DNA from: Eledone cirrhosa
Lineage: Eukaryota
Direction of reading: 5' to 3'
NCBI GenBank assembly: GCA_964016885.1
Contig: OZ024757.1
Coordinates: 1,736,001 to 1,800,000, forward strand
DNA length: 64,000 nt
Positions 35,190 through 58,482 of this stretch are shown here, piece after piece. The notes beneath the pieces were generated by a model, which was given only the letters and a program-made list of their open reading frames with translations, was not told where the DNA came from and searched no databases. The translations under genes were made by a program, and so were the position numbers. Each line of letters opens with the position of its first letter. The stretch's first letter is position 1.

Positions 35190-35570
35190 CATCATCATCA
35201 TCATCACCGTTTTACGTCCGTTCTTCCACACTAGCATGGGTTAGACGGGTTGTCCTGTTGTGAGCAGTGTCCGGTCGGCTGACCATGCCTTGCTCATACA
35301 GGAACTGATTTGGCTTGATTTCTACAGCTGGATGCCCTTCCTAACGCCAACCTCATTTACAGTGAGTGCTGGGTGCTTTTTTGCCGTGGCACCTCCAAGA
35401 CCACTTTGCAGGGGAATGATAGGGACCTCATTTCTACATCTGAGTAAACTGGAGCAATGTGAAATAAAGTGTCTTGCTAAAGGAAACAACACATCACCTG
35501 GTCCAAGAATTGAACTCACAACCTTTCGATTGCAAGCCCAATGCTCTAACCATTAGGCCATGCGCCTTCG
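35188..35570 (-). mobile_element. tRNA-headed SINE carrying the RTE 3' tail
   Basis: Minus strand GGCGCATGGCCTAATGGTTAGAG (A box)...GAGTTCAATTC (B box), SINE core, then about 220 nt matching the RTE 3' UTR and (GAT)n. Second copy at 51518-51919. Confidence 0.85.
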
Positions 35571-36470
<900 letters not shown>

Positions 36471-36606
36471 ACGAAGGCACATGGCTTAATGGTTAGAGCA
36501 TTGGGCTTGCAATCGAAAGGTTGTCAGTTCAATTCTTGGACCAGGTGATGTGTTATATATATACATATACATATATACATATACATATATATATACATAT
36601 ATATAT

Positions 36607-37846
36607 ATGAATATAGACATAGAATATTCGAAAATATTCTGTATGTTTATAATAAACATTTTGAAGACCTAATCGCTATAGAATAGAATACGTCACGTAT
36701 TACAATTAGATTCTCGATAAAAGCAAGGGAAGTAATCTACGCGTTTCATTCTTATTAGAAATCTTCAGGACTACATATCCAGTGCTTTTATCGAGAATGA
36801 CACAGCTAGAGACTTATAGAATACTTAGCTGTGTACAGAAACTGGTTTGAAAGAGCGGTTGCCGGTCCGGCAGAAATTAGAAATTGGAATAAATGCTCTG
36901 AAATAGCGATATATATGTGAATATAGACATAGAATATTCGAAAATATTCTGTATGTTTATAATAAACATTTTGAAGACCTAATCGCTATAGAATAGAATA
37001 CGTCACGTATTACAATTAGATTCTCGATAAAAGCAAGGGAAGTAATCTACGCGTTTCATTCTTATTAGATTACTTCCCTTGCTTTTATCGAGAATCTAAT
37101 TGTAATACGTGACGTATTCTATTCTATAGCGATTAGGTCTTCAAAATGTTTATTATAAACATACAGAATATTTTCGAATATTCTATGTCTATATTCACAT
37201 ATATATCGCTATTTCAGAGCATTTATTCCAATTTCTAATTTCTGCCGGACCGGCAACCGCTCTTTCAAACCAGTTTCTGTACACAGCTAAGTATTCTATA
37301 AGTCTCTAGCTGTGTCATTCTCGATAAAAGCACTGGATATGTAGTCCTGAAGATTTCTAATAAGAATGAAACGCGTAGATTACTTCCCTTGCTTTTATCG
37401 AGAATCTAATTGTAATACGTGACGTATTCTATTCTATAGCGATTAGGTCTTCAAAATGTTTATTATAAACATACAGAATATTTTCGAATATTCTATGTCT
37501 ATATTCACATATATATCGCTATTTCAGAGCATTTATTCCAATTTCTAATTTCTGCCGGACCGGCAACCGCTCTTTCAAACCAGTTTCTGTACACAGCTAA
37601 GTATTCTATAAGTCTCTAGCTGTGTCATTCTCGATAAAAGCACTGGATATGTAGTCCTGAAGATTTCTAATAAGAATGAAACGCGTAGATTACTTCCCTT
37701 GCTTTTATCGAGAATCTAATTGTAATACGTGACGTATTCTATTCTATAGCGATTAGGTCTTCAAAATGTTTATTATAAACATACAGAATATTTTCGAATA
37801 TTCTATGTCTATATTCACATATATATCGCTATTTCAGAGCATTTAT

Positions 37847-37851
<5 letters not shown>
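36607..37851. mobile_element. Retrozyme-like / PLE pseudo-LTR array: 310-nt non-coding unit, ~1.5 copies (-) plus ~2.5 copies (+), one HHR per unit
   Basis: Identical units with period 310 (37341 to 37651). HHR GUAGUC-CUGAAGA-U UUCU AAUA AGAA U-GAAA-CGCG-UA|GAUUAC at 36732-36774 (-), 37341-37383 (+) and 37651-37693 (+). Flanked by (TA)n. Confidence 0.85.
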
Positions 37852-37943
<92 letters not shown>

Positions 37944-38348
37944 TCTTTAAGTCGTTTGGAAGCCTCGACAATGCAGATAGGTAAATCTCCGGGTAACAAG
38001 ATCCGGTGGTGGAGAGAGAGGTGTAAGTGGGTGTACGTTGAGATACGTGGTGTGTAAAGATGTGTAAATGTGTAGAGAAAGAAGGGAAGAGTATAAAGGA
38101 TAAAATAAAATAACAACACAAGAGAGAATTACCTTGGGAGAGATTTAATAGTCCCTATATATTTCGGATTCACATCCATCAACTGGGGTTTTTGTTCCGG
38201 GGTAAAGGTTGTCTGTCGGACAGGTGCGAAACGCGTCCTCGAGGACGCGTTTTGCACCTGTCCGACAGACAACCTTTACCCCGGAAAAGTGCTTCCAATC
38301 TACTGTAAAACTCATTCTTTGACATAATCATTGAATATTGTTTAACAA

Positions 38349-38449: not shown

Positions 38450-40790
38450 GAATATGTGATGGGAGAGAGAAAATCCTCAACGCTCACATGATGATGTGGA
38501 CTGACATCCTAAAGCCAAGCAGACGCACTGTCAAAAACTTCCAGGCGTCTAACAATGGCATACCACCTTTGTATGGGCTCCGCAAAGACCATAAGACAGT
38601 CGACGACCCGACGACAGGACCACCAACAAGACCTGTATGCGGAGCAAATATAGCTAGCAACTACAGGATCTCCTACTTCCTCTCAATGGTTATATGCCCC
38701 ATAATCAAGATGTCCCCAGATGTATGTGACAGTACAGAAGACCCTCCTCAGCAGAATCAGTGAGTGCAACAAAAACAAAAACCTATCCAACTGCATAATA
38801 GGCAGTATGGATGTGGTATCACTGTACCCATCCATTAACATTGATTTTGCTGTGGAAAAATGTGTGGAGATGATCATTGAGAGTGAGGTGGAGTTCTGCG
38901 ACGTCGACACAGACGAACTGGGCCTCCTACTTAGACTTACCAACGACACTGACTACCTAGACAGCCATGACTTAGATGTTTCTGCCCCAGTAGACCCATA
39001 AGAGATAGACCCCCCACCATAACCTCAATGGCAAAAAAGACTCCCATGGGAAGGTGAATTGGGTGGACCAAAGCTATACGGACCCCCCAAAACAATGATC
39101 AGGTAAGAAAAATGGTCGCACATGCAATAGGGGCTAGTATCAAAACTACCCTAAAGGGCCACATATTCAAATTGAAAGAGAAGATCTACACCCAAAATGA
39201 GGGAGCAGCCATTGGCGTCAGCATAGCTGGTGACGTTGCCAACCTTTTTATGGTATGATGGGAAAGGAGACTCAAAGATCTCTTGATGAGAGCTCCATAG
39301 ACCTCATCATGTACTCTCGTTGCGTAGACGACATTAATATAGTAATAAGGCCATCCTCACAAGAGAGTACTAACAAGTATGATTTAGAATGTAGCACAAT
39401 GGAAAGATCCAGCAGATAGCTAACTCCATACACCAGAGTATAACTGTAACTATCGACTACCCTTCCAAACACCCTAACAGTAGACTACCTGTATTAAACA
39501 TGGAACTCTGGATTAACACTATAGACGAGAGAGCCCAAATTCTCCACCCACACTATGCTAAACCCATGGCCCCCAAATACCTGATACTAAAAAACTCAGC
39601 AATGTCCAGTAGTGCTAAATTTAATATTCTGATCGCAGATTTGGTACGAGTGATGAAGAATGCGTCCCGCATGTGCGACCCAACAGAAATGGAAAGACAC
39701 ATCCAACACTTCATCAACCGCATGCAGCTCTCTGGCTACAACCAAAGAGACAGAGTCAGAGTATACGAAGGAGCCACGGAGAAGTATAAGACCCTCATAG
39801 AACTGGACATGAAAGGAATTTGCCCATTATACGGGAGCAAATCATGGAATAGCTTAGATAGGACTAGACATAAGATAGGGAAAGCCACCTCATGGTACGA
39901 CAACCAGAGATACCAGAGTGTCATGTTTGTGGACGCTACCCCTGGAGGGAAATTAGCTAACCAGTATAGAAAGGCCCTGAGAAAGACCCACTTAAAGATT
40001 AAGGTGGTAGAAAAGCCAGGAACCACCATAAAATCCCTGATCAGCAAAACCTACCCTTTTAAGAAAACCCACCGTACTAATAGGAAATGTATCATATGCA
40101 AAGTAAACCCCCGGATAAACTGTATAACTAGAAACGTAGTCTATAGCATAAGATGTACAGAGGGTACTTGCAGAAACATGACAACAACATACATAGGCGA
40201 GACAGCTCGTAGCATAGGTGAAAGGATAAACCAACACTGGGGGGAACTAAAAGGATGAAAAAACGGTTCAGTACTATACGAACATACCAGACAACAACAC
40301 GACGGTAACATAGACAACATAGAAATTAGAATAATATCTAAACATAGAAATGACCCAGCAGATAGGCAAATCAGAGAGGCTAGCGAAATAGAACTTAGAA
40401 GGCCAAGGCTAAACAGAAAAAAGGAATGGAATAACAACAACACCCAAACAAACAATACTGACCTAAGAGAAGTATAAATAAATAAATAAATACATACACA
40501 AGCACAATAACAACAAACACATATAAACACACACTAGTAAACTAAGATAGAATACAATAACCAATACACAGTCACCCAAACATGAACACTATACACACAT
40601 GCAAACGCATGCGCAGAGAAGACAAAAAAAATAAATAAATAAATAAACAGACTAAATAAAGATGGCGTAGGCATACAATACAACAGGAGGAAACACTATA
40701 GCACCACTGACAATGTTGCAGATGTGCAACGAAAGAACTTTGTTAGACTATATAACATTCCATAAAGTATACAGCTAATATCTAATACTT
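38450..40790 (+). mobile_element. Penelope-like element (Neptune-like): RT plus GIY-YIG pseudogene
   Basis: PPLYGLRKDHK..TRPVCG, GSMDVVSLYPSI, QNEGAAIG, YSRCVDDI (frameshifted RT). Cys-rich linker and NVVYSIRC..C..YIGETARSIGERINQH endonuclease. HHR-like motif in the 3' end. Confidence 0.9.
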
Positions 40791-42931: not shown

Positions 42932-43179
42932 CATAAATATATATATATAAAAATAAAAAGGTGGAAGGGGTATTCAAATAGTTGGGAATACAACAAATAA
43001 TAAATAAAGGTATAAATGTTTATAGCTGATTTAGAGCACTCAACAGTTCCTGTAACAAATAATCAATGAAAAAAACATTAAATAACTCTGTATGTAATTA
43101 TATATATACATACATATATATACATGCACACACACACACACAACCATATACATACAAATATATATATATAGAGAGAGAG

Positions 43180-44480
43180 AGAGTATAACTGTAACTATCG
43201 ACTACCTGTATTAGACACGGAACTCTGGATTAACACTATAGACGAGAGAGCCCAAATTCTCCACCCACACTATGCTAAACCCATGGCCTCCAAATACCTG
43301 ATACTCAAAAACTCAGCAATGTCCAGTAGTGCTAAGTTTAATATTCTGATCGCAAACTTGGTACAAGTGATGAAGAACGTGTCCCGTATGTGCGACCCAA
43401 CAGAAATGGAAAGACACATCCAACACTTCATCAACCACATGCAGCTCTCTGGCTACAAACAAAGAGACAGAGTCAGAGTATACGAAGGAGCCACGGAGAA
43501 GTATAAGACCCTCATAGAACTAGACATGAAAGGAATTTGCCCATTATACAGGAGCAAATCATGGAATAGCTTAGATAGGACTAAACATAAGATAGGGAAA
43601 GTCACCTCATGGTACGACAACCAGAGATACCAGAGTGTCATGTTTGTGGATGCTACCCCTGGAGGGAAATTAGCTAACCAGTGTAGAAAGGCCCTGAGAA
43701 AGACCCACTTAAAGATTAAGGTGGTAGAAAAGCCAGGAACCACCATAAAATCCCTGATCAGCAAAACCTACCCTTTTAAGAAAACCCACCGTACTAATAG
43801 GAAATGTATCATATGTAAAGTAAACCCCCAGATAAACTATAAAACTAGAAACGTAGTCTATAGCATAAGATGTACAGAGGGTACTTGCAGAAACATGACA
43901 ACAACATACATAGGCGAGACAGCTCGTAGCATAGGTGAAAGGATAAACCAACACTGGGGGGAACTAAAGACGAAAAAACGGTTCAGTACTATACGAACAT
44001 ACCAGACAACAACACGACGGTAACATAGACAACATAGAAATTAGAATAATATCTAAACATAGAAATGACCCAGCAGATAGGCAAATCAGAGAGGCAAGTG
44101 AAATAGAACTTAGAAGGCCAAAGCTAAACAGAAAAAATAAATGGAATAACAACAACACCCAAACAAACAACACTGACCTAAGAGAAGTATAAATAAATAA
44201 ATACATACACAAGCACAATAACAACAAACACATATAAACACACACTAGTAAACTCAGATAGAATACAATAACCAATACACAGTCACCCAAACACGAACAC
44301 ACATCAAACAAAACACTATACACACACGCAAACGCATGTGCAGAGAAGACAAAAAAATAAACAAATAAATAAACAGACTAAATAAAGATGGCGTAGGCAT
44401 ACAATGCAACGGGAGGAAACACTATAGCACCACTGACGATGTTGCAGATGTGCAACAAAAGAACTTTGTTAGACTATATA
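43180..44480 (+). mobile_element. Second, 5'-truncated copy of the Neptune-like PLE (GIY-YIG ORF 43283-44023)
   Basis: Highly similar to 39435-40752. Flanked by microsatellites. Confidence 0.9.

Positions 44481-49234: not shown

Positions 49235-49237
<3 letters not shown>
48528..49237 (+). mobile_element. RTE LINE 3' fragment
   Basis: Matches about 30274-30987, with a (GAT)n tail. Confidence 0.95.
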
Positions 49238-49325
<88 letters not shown>

Positions 49326-49327
49326 TG

Positions 49328-49364
<37 letters not shown>

Positions 49365-49376
49365 GTATTTATATAT

Positions 49377-50210
49377 AATTAAGTTAAAAATGTACATCCA
49401 CATATGTATACTGAAATACTAGTATGCATATGAATACACACACGTGTACATATGTAGATGTACCGAGTTTTTCACTGGTCACTTTACTGTGAGTGTCCAG
49501 CTATTCTGTATGTAAACACACAGACAAACCGGTTTTCTGGAGAATAGAGGAAAGGTGTTTCCTCAAAAACCAGTATGACTCTAAAAACCGGTTTGTCTGT
49601 GTGTTTACATACAGAATAGCTGGACACTCACAGTAAAGTGACCAGTGAAAAACTCGGTACATCTACATATGTACACGTGTGTGTATTCATATGCATACTA
49701 GTATTTCAGTATACATATGTGGATGTACATTTTTAACTTAATTGTTTAAGCGTCAGTCATACAAAAGTGAGTTACAAACGAAACGAAATTTAATTTCGTT
49801 TCGTTATTTGTTTTTATCGTCTCCGTTGAACCGGTACGTACTCACGCTCTATGCAAATTAGTCTGCCCACTACTAATTTTCATAGAAAAAGCATATAACG
49901 ATATGTGCTTTTACGATTCTCTAGAAAGGCCGGAAGATAGGTAAATATTGCTGATGAGATGTAACAACATCGAAACTAGTCCAATATTCCTTGTCTGGCT
50001 TTCTGGAGAATAGAGGAAAGGTGTTTCCTCAAAAACCAGTATGACTCTAAAAACCGGTTTGTCTGTGTGTTTACATACAGAATAGCTGGACACTCACAGT
50101 AAAGTGACCAGTGAAAAACTCGGTACATCTACATATGTACACGTGTGTGTATTCATATGCATACTAGTATTTCAGTATACATATGTGGATGTACATTTTT
50201 AACTTAATTA
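49377..50210. mobile_element. HHR-bearing non-coding unit (466-nt period) with 5' inverted copy
   Basis: 49534-49743 repeats at 50000-50209. 49377-49536 is the inverted 3' end. Flanked by (TA)n. Confidence 0.8.
49944..49988 (+). ncRNA. Minimal type I hammerhead ribozyme
   Basis: AAUAUUG-CUGAUGA-GAUGU AACA ACAUC-GAAA-CUAG-UC|CAAUAUU. Perfect helices I and II, palindromic ACUAGU helix III, GUC site. Confidence 0.9.
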
Positions 50211-50217
50211 TATATAA

Positions 50218-50725
<508 letters not shown>

Positions 50726-58433: not shown

Positions 58434-58482
58434 GCTTCCTGATGATTTCTCCCAAATGAAACAGTTCTAGTCCTGTAGAAGC
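58434..58482 (+). ncRNA. Type I hammerhead ribozyme
   Basis: GCUUC-CUGAUGA-UUU CUCCC AAA U-GAAA-CAG UUCUAGUC CUG-UA|GAAGC. A 5'-truncated homolog lies at 15755-15797. Confidence 0.78.

What the first reader, a model, noticed from the sequence alone, without database searches (positions are those of the whole stretch)
36607..37851. 310-nt non-coding hammerhead array whose 5' junction sits on the ribozyme cleavage site: candidate cephalopod retrozyme
Seen: identical 310-nt units with no protein motif and one minimal type I HHR each. The HHR has a palindromic helix III (ACGCGU), and a perfect 16-bp ATTCTCGATAAAAGCA/TGCTTTTATCGAGAAT stem extends helix I. The plus-strand run begins at TA|GATTAC (37066-37073), exactly at the predicted GUA| cut, joined to the inverted copy by a 4-nt microhomology (TAGA). 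Known: small HHR-containing tandem 'non-LTR retrozymes' of some metazoans give circular RNAs and are thought to be mobilised by PLEs, and palindromic helix III allows dimeric cleavage. Inference: this insertion was reverse-transcribed from a self-cleaved multimeric or circular RNA and is recent.
Basis: partly seen in the sequence, partly recalled or inferred. Interest (0 to 1): 0.9.

Follow-up and report, generated by a model that had tools for sequence, protein, structure and literature searches.

The report
Palindromic retrozyme carrying Penelope insertion marks
This is one copy of a young, non-coding 310-base repeat with a hammerhead-ribozyme motif, present about 16,800 times in this animal genome as back-to-back arrays whose two fixed outer ends indicate it was likely pasted in by a Penelope-type reverse transcriptase, probably copying a circular RNA, although its junction at the predicted ribozyme cut site is a coincidence.

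Summary
The array is real: 310-nt identical units, one type I hammerhead motif each, 1.5 inverted plus 2.5 forward units in (TA)n. The headline inference fails. Other copies' 5' junctions are spread over the unit: 0 of 198 arms include the cut site, and genome-wide there are 6 clean starts at the cut against 9 and 7 at control positions. The family has 16,772 hammerhead-bearing units and at least 1,130 insertions. Most sampled loci are palindromes with 3' ends outward. In 96 of 96 classifiable two-armed loci, one end is at unit ~130-139 and the other at ~156-173. This is the one-sided 'tail' that Penelope-like elements (PLEs) make from two internal reverse-transcription starts. Both arms carry one locus haplotype (214 of 217 sites; 42 haplotypes in 95 loci). 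Best reading: a non-LTR retrozyme inserted by a PLE enzyme priming both target ends on one RNA, likely a circle (inferred). Cleavage, circles, the partner PLE and the cephalopod label are untested or not found. Retrozymes and PLE tails are each known; I did not find the combination in the retrozyme papers read. This scan noted similar PLE-type palindromic or tandem insertions in two other genomes (AI notes, unchecked).

The parts
36554..36607 (.). left (TA)n target microsatellite
   Evidence: TRF period 2; sequence
36608..37069 (-). inverted arm, 1.5 units; outer 3' end at unit 130 (ambiguous to 139, 36599) = short end; inner 5' end at unit 289
   Evidence: exact 462-nt match to the tandem; junction table
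36732..36774 (-). complete type I hammerhead motif of the inverted arm, predicted cut 36738|36737
   Evidence: descriptor scan
37066..37069 (.). inversion junction, 4-nt microhomology TAGA; includes the predicted cut by chance; this junction occurs once in the genome
37066..37852 (+). forward arm, 2.5 identical units; outer 3' end at unit 165 = long end
37317..37405 (+). hammerhead 1: 16-bp stem 37317-37332/37390-37405, helix I 37341-37346/37378-37383, core from 37347, predicted cut 37377|37378
37627..37715 (+). hammerhead 2, predicted cut 37687|37688
37378..37687 (+). 310-nt monomer that double cleavage would release (predicted)
   Evidence: lies between two complete motifs; cleavage not tested
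37746..37852 (+). conserved structured module (unit 59-165, last copy) holding both insertion end sites; shared with sister families; inferred binding and initiation region for the reverse transcriptase
37817..37852 (+). one-sided 'tail': 26-35 nt between the short site (unit 130-139) and the long site (unit 165)
37853..37944 (.). right (TA)n target microsatellite

Best explanation
The locus is one insertion of a young, non-coding hammerhead-motif tandem element (a non-LTR retrozyme) that is likely mobilised by a Penelope-like element's enzyme, which likely primes reverse transcription from both cut ends of a (TA)n target on one and the same, probably circular, 310-nt RNA. Shown in sequence: head-to-tail units; palindromic layout with 3' ends outward; one short and one long outer end per locus; (TA)n flanks; scattered inner 5' ends joined by microhomology or short inserts; one haplotype per locus on both arms. 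Inferred steps: (1) an array is transcribed on the hammerhead strand; (2) neighbouring ribozymes cleave as a dimer through the palindromic helix III and the monomer is ligated; (3) a PLE protein binds the structured module at unit 59-172 and nicks both strands of (TA)n; (4) one DNA end primes at unit ~130-139, pairing with the AU repeat there, the other at ~165-172; (5) both enzymes run round the template for several turns (median 3.4 units per arm) and fall off at random; (6) the two cDNAs are joined by microhomology-mediated end joining. Odds: PLE mobilisation about 0.9, both arms from one template sequence about 0.8, circle rather than uncleaved linear multimer about 0.6.
For: Ends: 52 of 52 resolved two-armed loci picked by the long end have the short end opposite; 11 of 11 picked by an internal motif and 33 of 36 from the first search are also short+long (2 unclear, 1 cut off); no long+long or short+short locus. 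184 of 199 outer ends run into (TA)n within 12 nt. PMC11167929 (main text read) shows in vitro that a PLE protein cuts and extends both strands of AT-rich DNA and starts at two adjacent internal RNA sites downstream of the hammerhead cut, which bound the 30-40-nt tail; PMC8557442 and PMC3846280 (passages) describe the inverted 5'-truncated copy, the one-sided tail and (TA)n targets. Junctions: 29 of 45 insert-free junctions have >=2 nt microhomology (null 18.5%, p 2e-11); 19 of 64 carry inserts. One template: arms agree at 214 of 217 haplotype sites while two random loci share a haplotype 8% of the time; 33 of 42 haplotypes are private to one locus yet fixed in its units; within-locus mismatch is 0.08%. 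For a circle: no 5' ends at the cut; no indel scars at unit 306-2 in 929 units (the 84 indels at position 3 are a fixed haplotype insertion); only 2 of 93 loci share minority variants between arms in register, against 90 unshared variants in 235 overlapping units. Function retained: 948 of 962 sampled cores intact; sister families keep the motif with different stems and a C3-G8 versus U3-A8 swap; the end module shows two-sided changes in 5 of 19 predicted pairs over 14 sequences of related families.
Against: No transcript, cleavage or circle was observed. No autonomous partner was found: none of 25 GIY-YIG reading frames in about 1.3 Mb of fetched DNA ends in the module, nor did profile scans find one. 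L159 and L141 carry minority variants at the same unit index from both outer ends, which requires a multi-unit template at least there. Long arrays show repeated variants with irregular spacing (L145, L122, L062), so local duplication after insertion also lengthens and homogenises arrays. PMC11167929 found hammerhead cleavage dispensable in vitro and unprocessed RNA the main substrate; the preprint 10.64898/2026.07.22.740005 saw cleavage in only 1 of 9 retrozyme dimers. Helix II is weak in the predicted circle (pair probability 0.15-0.17) and helix III does not form in the monomer. Avoidance of the core by fixed variants is not significant on its own (0 of 47, expected 1.7).
Confidence: 0.6

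Rival explanations
1. Same PLE-driven two-ended priming, but the template is an uncleaved linear multi-unit transcript; arrays regain length and uniformity afterwards by local duplication. The hammerhead is then only a folding or binding element, or acts late.
For: In-register variants on both arms of L159 and L141; local duplications in long arrays; unprocessed RNA is the substrate for the anole PLE in vitro (PMC11167929); no 5' ends at the cut fits this too.
Against: 33 private haplotypes are fixed across inverted arms at 99.9% internal identity, which needs a one-unit bottleneck and then parallel expansion of both arms; only 2 of 93 loci show inherited multi-unit patterns; no junction is repeated among the 64 position-sampled loci, and the one junction found 5 times sits in 4 haplotypes.
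Confidence: 0.27
2. One priming event, after which the cDNA folds back or self-primes and is copied to make the mirror arm, ending where its AT repeat anneals to the target (related to the self-priming model of PMC3846280).
For: Explains one haplotype per locus; several junction inserts are short fold-back palindromes; the short end has 8 nt of homology to (TA)n.
Against: If the long end always comes first the short-end arm cannot be the longer, yet it is in 26 of 63 loci; if either may come first, short+short loci are expected and none was seen; L159's arms match in register from the outer ends, not from the junction.
Confidence: 0.07
3. One reading: reverse transcriptase ran off the 5' end of a self-cleaved linear RNA, so the junction marks the cut.
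For: The junction's 4-nt ambiguity includes the cut at this locus; 5 of 198 other arms lie within 3 nt of it.
Against: 5.7 such arms are expected by chance; 0 of 198 include the cut exactly; 6 versus 9 and 7 genome-wide. It cannot be excluded for this single locus.
Confidence: 0.03
4. Assembly artefact or DNA-level satellite rearrangement.
For: Palindromes can arise from fold-back reads; arrays do expand locally.
Against: Arms have different fixed ends and unrelated flanks at about 100 loci; contigs from 4 runs of 4 studies hold the unit head-to-tail, and one shows (TA)n following unit 139 (that run may be the source data); 1,130 exact long-end junctions, control 0.
Confidence: 0.03

Closest known systems
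Metazoan non-LTR retrozymes (Cervera and de la Pena 2020, PMC7229834; Li, Clavereau and Pollet 2026, bioRxiv 10.64898/2026.07.22.740005)
   Same: Non-coding tandem units of 150-450 bp, low GC, one type I hammerhead per unit, thousands of copies, structured predicted circle; weak palindromic helix III (like axolotl Amex1) and U.U at the base of helix II (like Amex2); PLEs present in the same genome.
   Different: Those papers infer PLE mobilisation from co-occurrence and pLTR homology; a word search of their main texts finds no inverted arrays or tails (supplements not read). Here most loci are palindromes with a fixed short and long end. Circles were shown there and are untested here.
Penelope-like element insertions with inverted 5'-truncated copy and one-sided 30-40-bp tail (PMC8557442, PMC3846280); Poseidon from Anolis in vitro (PMC11167929)
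   Same: 3' ends outward, variable 5' ends, 26-35-nt tail on one side, two internal start sites downstream of the hammerhead cut, AT-rich or (TA)n target, microhomology at the junction.
   Different: No reading frame; both arms are multi-unit; the two start sites are used strictly as a pair (96 of 96), whereas the in vitro work saw no strand difference in start site; the short site is complementary to the target over 8 nt.
Non-autonomous Chlamys elements such as MRC1 (PMC8557442)
   Same: Non-autonomous PLE derivatives with multicopy head-to-tail insertions.
   Different: Those share 3' ends with known autonomous families and their clade lacks canonical hammerheads; here the hammerhead is present and no partner was found.
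L1 twin priming (recalled, not from a call)
   Same: Two target ends prime on one RNA and give an inversion joined by microhomology.
   Different: There the downstream cDNA stops near the internal primer; here the long arm's 5' end lies at unit 120-150 in only 10 of 63 loci (p 0.09), and both arms repeat the same sequence.

Membership tests
non-LTR retrozyme | tandem units of about 150-450 bp, GC below 50% | tested here: met
   310-bp period; the 2-kb bin holding the array is 26% GC
non-LTR retrozyme | type I hammerhead motif in every unit, at least two consecutive complete motifs | tested here: met
   37347 and 37657; 948 of 962 sampled cores intact; Rfam score below gathering
non-LTR retrozyme | no coding capacity | tested here: met
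   longest frame 59 codons in the tandem
non-LTR retrozyme | dispersed, mobile, multi-locus | tested here: met
   16,772 units and 1,130 exact long-end junctions on many contigs
non-LTR retrozyme | self-cleavage (as dimer) | not testable with these tools
   helix III duplex -9.5 kcal/mol predicted only
non-LTR retrozyme | accumulates as monomer circular RNA | not testable with these tools
   no run on record as RNA was available; circular contigs cannot tell a circle from tandem DNA
Penelope-like element (non-autonomous) | inverted 5'-truncated copy with 3' ends outward | tested here: met
   54 of 60 loci picked by the long end are two-armed, 3 single-armed, 3 unresolved
Penelope-like element (non-autonomous) | 30-40-bp tail on one end only | tested here: met
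   short 130-139 and long 156-173 ends paired in 96 of 96 classifiable loci; 26-35 nt in the window
Penelope-like element (non-autonomous) | AT-rich or microsatellite target | tested here: met
   184 of 199 ends
Penelope-like element (non-autonomous) | 3' end shared with an autonomous RT + GIY-YIG family | tested here: inconclusive
   0 of 25 GIY-YIG frames in the sampled DNA, a small part of the genome
ordinary pseudo-LTR of a coding PLE | unit lies directly downstream of an RT/GIY-YIG frame | tested here: not met
   in the 113 family loci read, the 5' side is the other arm, (TA)n, unrelated DNA or not reached; nearby PLE frames are separate insertions
PLE minimal hammerhead (min-HHR) | no helix III stem, long helix II (7-8 bp), short helix I | tested here: not met
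   helix I 6 bp, helix II 4 bp, helix III 1-2 bp: canonical by PMC4209133

The most novel reading that the evidence does not exclude
A Penelope reverse-transcriptase dimer grips one 310-nt ribozyme-made RNA circle at two sites 26-35 nt apart and rolls round it from both ends of a double-strand break. This double rolling-circle reverse transcription has written roughly 1,800 palindromes into the genome, explains the Penelope 'tail' and inverted repeat as an obligate pair, and serves at least seven retrozyme families here that swap ribozymes but keep an initiation module.
Probability: 0.4. Interest if true: 0.8.

Novelty: new member of a known kind. Interest (0 to 1): 0.6.

Why it matters
Which enzyme spreads animal retrozymes, and whether their circles are really the template, are open questions in the papers read; how PLEs form inverted repeats and tails is named as unsolved in PMC8557442. 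This family puts the PLE insertion signature directly on a retrozyme, in over a thousand near-identical natural events. It adds constraints: the two start sites are always used as a pair, both arms come from one haplotype, and the ribozyme cut leaves no ends. A 310-nt RNA with mapped start sites is a ready substrate for an in vitro test. If the circle reading holds, it is a natural rolling-circle reverse transcription system in an animal genome. About 5 Mb (0.17%) of palindromic DNA could also be a source of double-stranded RNA (inference).

Tried and rejected
(1) Junction at the cut site as a mechanism: rejected. (2) An apparent hotspot of 5' ends at unit 205-213 in the first 38 loci: absent from position-sampled loci (chi-square p 0.32 over 128 arms), probably produced by the first search seeding on the window's rare base at unit 209 (inference); that set was left out of the uniformity test. 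A mild skew towards unit 1-155 (Rayleigh p 0.03) fits arms shorter than one unit. (3) Inheritance of the 148/210 junction from a master palindrome: rejected, 5 copies genome-wide in 4 haplotypes; it remains a small unexplained hotspot. (4) A 'fixed' G at the cleavage position in L050: alignment artefact, all 13 complete motifs read GUA. (5) Lock-step of the two enzymes: the offset between the arms' 5' ends is uniform (13 of 63 within 30 nt, expected 12.4), though arm lengths correlate (rho 0.44). (6) Partner search: neighbouring PLE frames, 25 GIY-YIG frames, two profile scans and two sister-family searches gave only more non-coding families. (7) Expression: no RNA holder listed, which says nothing either way; three runs of unknown kind gave single 340-nt self-overlapping contigs, expected from tandem DNA as well as from a circle, so not counted as evidence of a circle. 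(8) Pfam found nothing in the two window PLE fragments. (9) A genome-wide count of mixed-haplotype arrays could not be run and stays open. (10) No look-alike among earlier scan findings by sequence. Rows dropped: repeated junction records of L039 and L099, and L052; L039, L047, L060, L099; L046, L047, L062, L150 and position 209.

Full report
OBSERVATION. The window holds an inverted arm (36608-37069, 1.5 units) and a forward arm (37066-37852, 2.5 units) of a 310-nt unit, between (TA)n runs. I number the unit from the first base after the predicted cut (37068 = 1). The forward units are identical and the longest reading frame is 59 codons. Three complete type I hammerhead motifs are present (37347 +, 37657 +, 36768 -). 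Helix I has 6 bp and is continued past an internal loop by a 16-bp stem; helix II has 4 bp above a U.U pair; helix III has 1-2 bp with a palindromic loop. By the definition in PMC4209133 (passages) that is a canonical, dimer-dependent animal hammerhead, not a minimal one. Two of 3000 shuffles hold such a motif; Rfam gives only a weak HH9 match, E 0.071. The 4-nt microhomology at the junction includes the predicted cut.

THE FAMILY. The window's genome (3.0 Gb) holds 16,772 exact matches to a 25-nt hammerhead pattern and 1,130 exact junctions of unit 165 with (AT)n; reversed-pattern controls gave 0. With a mean of 9.4 units per resolved locus this is roughly 1,800 loci and 5 Mb (estimate). I read 113 family loci: the window, 38 from a similarity search, 14 of 20 stretches taken in order along contig C1 by an internal motif, and 60 taken in order along C1 by the long end. 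Copies are mostly 94-100% identical to the window's unit.

THE CUT-SITE CLAIM. Inner 5' ends are spread over the unit (128 arms of 64 position-sampled loci, chi-square p 0.32). None of these 128, and none of 198 arms overall, includes the cut (expected 1.1 and 1.9); 5 of 198 lie within 3 nt (expected 5.7). Genome-wide, patterns for a clean start give 6 at the cut and 9 and 7 at unit 61 and 217 (some matches may be small indels). The window's junction occurs once. The coincidence is chance, about 3% for such a locus.

WHAT IS CONSTANT. The outer 3' ends. Of 60 loci picked by the long end, 54 are two-armed, 3 single-armed and 3 unresolved. In 52 of 52 resolved ones the other end is short (unit 127-139); so too in 11 of 11 picked by the internal motif and 33 of 36 of the first set (2 unclear, 1 cut off); there is no long+long or short+short locus. 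For the 44 loci not chosen by an end, independent 50:50 choice would give this with probability 0.5^44. 184 of 199 outer ends run into (TA)n. The short site is an AU repeat that can pair with the target over 8 nt; the long site offers 2-3 nt. The difference, 26-35 nt, matches the 30-40-bp tail found at one end of PLE insertions together with an inverted 5'-truncated copy (PMC8557442, passages; PMC3846280, passages). PMC11167929 (main text) showed that a PLE protein cuts and extends both strands of AT-rich DNA and starts at two adjacent internal RNA sites that bound the tail. The fixed ends are 3' on the hammerhead strand, so that strand is the likely template (inference). Junctions are rich in microhomology (29 of 45 with >=2 nt against 18.5%) or carry inserts (19 of 64), as expected of microhomology-mediated end joining (established knowledge).

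ONE TEMPLATE PER EVENT. Ninety-five loci with enough units fall into 42 haplotypes, 33 seen once; two random loci share a haplotype 8% of the time; yet the two arms of a locus agree at 214 of 217 haplotype sites and units within a locus differ at 0.08% of bases. Private variants are fixed through both inverted arms (for example L036, L037, L043). This points to a one-unit bottleneck followed by amplification during insertion, which a circle gives naturally. No run-off ends at the cut and no scars at the unit joint in 929 units argue against jumping between cleaved linear monomers. Against: in L159 both arms begin with two units of one haplotype and continue with another, and L141 shares one variant in register, so some templates were multi-unit; these two loci also show both primers starting in the same unit. 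They are 2 of 93 loci, against 90 unshared variants in 235 overlapping units. Long arrays also show local duplication. Fold-back of one cDNA is disfavoured because the short-end arm is the longer in 26 of 63 loci.

SISTER FAMILIES. At least six other non-coding hammerhead tandem families show the same kind of layout. Four share the module at unit 59-172 and the same two ends but carry different hammerheads, three of them with U3-A8 in place of C3-G8. In 14 copies across families, 5 of 19 predicted pairs of the module show two-sided changes (related sequences, so suggestive only). The module, not the ribozyme sequence, is therefore the likely enzyme-binding part (inference). No autonomous partner was found: 0 of 25 GIY-YIG frames in the fetched DNA end in the module, and the decayed PLE beside the array (38480-40400; atlas look-alikes with HTH_animal and GIY-YIG) shares no sequence with the unit beyond a 15-nt chance match.

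ARTEFACT AND EXPRESSION. Distinct ends and flanks at about 100 loci exclude fold-back reads. Contigs from 4 runs of 4 studies hold the unit head-to-tail; one may be the source data. Expression, cleavage and circles could not be examined.

COMPARISON AND NOVELTY. It meets every sequence-testable feature of animal non-LTR retrozymes (PMC7229834, results and discussion read; bioRxiv 10.64898/2026.07.22.740005, abstract to discussion read) and of PLE insertion structure. Those two papers infer PLE mobilisation from co-occurrence and homology; their main texts do not mention inverted arrays or tails (supplements not read and may bear on this). Searches for octopus or cephalopod with hammerhead or ribozyme, and for retrozyme or Penelope with inversion, template switch or twin priming, listed no paper describing this family or strict pairing of start sites; the library omits most subscription journals and Repbase was not searched. 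The host group was not tested. Earlier scan notes on other genomes report similar PLE-type palindromic and tandem insertions; they are unchecked AI notes and came after my reading.

VERDICT. A new member of a known kind, with unusually direct evidence on mechanism. Interest 0.6.

Noticed in passing
window 49237-50365: A palindromic copy of a second hammerhead tandem family (466-nt unit, motif at 49951) in (TA)n; also in L039, L053, L073, L113, L156.
   Followed up: partly
L069-L098, L104, L107-L109, L113, L116; L052, L114, L167; L179-L198: Sister families (about 316-350-nt units, 65-90% alike in the end module) with the same two ends; most use a U3-A8 catalytic core, one keeps C3-G8.
   Followed up: partly
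L033, L034, L041, L102, L110, L143, L193 and window 49830-49950: Three of the other tandem families carry an ATGCAAAT octamer upstream of the hammerhead, a lead for an snRNA-type promoter as recalled for newt satellite 2 (recalled, untested).
   Followed up: no
window 38480-40400 and 43172-44023: Two decayed PLE copies (RT thumb and GIY-YIG, 94% alike at protein level) with a degenerate hammerhead near 40705; not the partner by sequence.
   Followed up: partly
window 38199-38283: Near-perfect 85-nt hairpin containing GAAACGCGTC; scores above the Rfam MIR7486 threshold, most likely an inversion junction of another element rather than a microRNA.
   Followed up: no
window 42710 (+), 44836 (-), 48132 (+), 50464 (-), 58439 (+): Further hammerhead-like cores, probably PLE ends; the one at 58439 has a helix II much like the array's.
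   Followed up: no
L159:1318-7719 and L131:308-4326: Arrays that switch haplotype along an arm; in L159 both arms switch at the same distance from their outer ends.
   Followed up: partly
L061-L065: The same 3-nt-microhomology junction (unit 148/210) formed at 5 loci in 4 haplotypes; more than chance suggests, unexplained.
   Followed up: partly
L039:4340-8652 and L099:3843-4020: A whole element repeated across an assembly gap (L039) and a junction repeated within one locus (L099).
   Followed up: no
window 35500-35560 (-) and 36475-36544 (+): Two tRNA-derived SINE-like copies in inverted orientation around an 870-nt (TA)n just left of the array.
   Followed up: no
L142 (minus strand, first 2.3 kb): A 763-codon open RT + GIY-YIG frame, cut off by the edge of the stretch, near-identical in L031 and L118: a young PLE family.
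   Followed up: no
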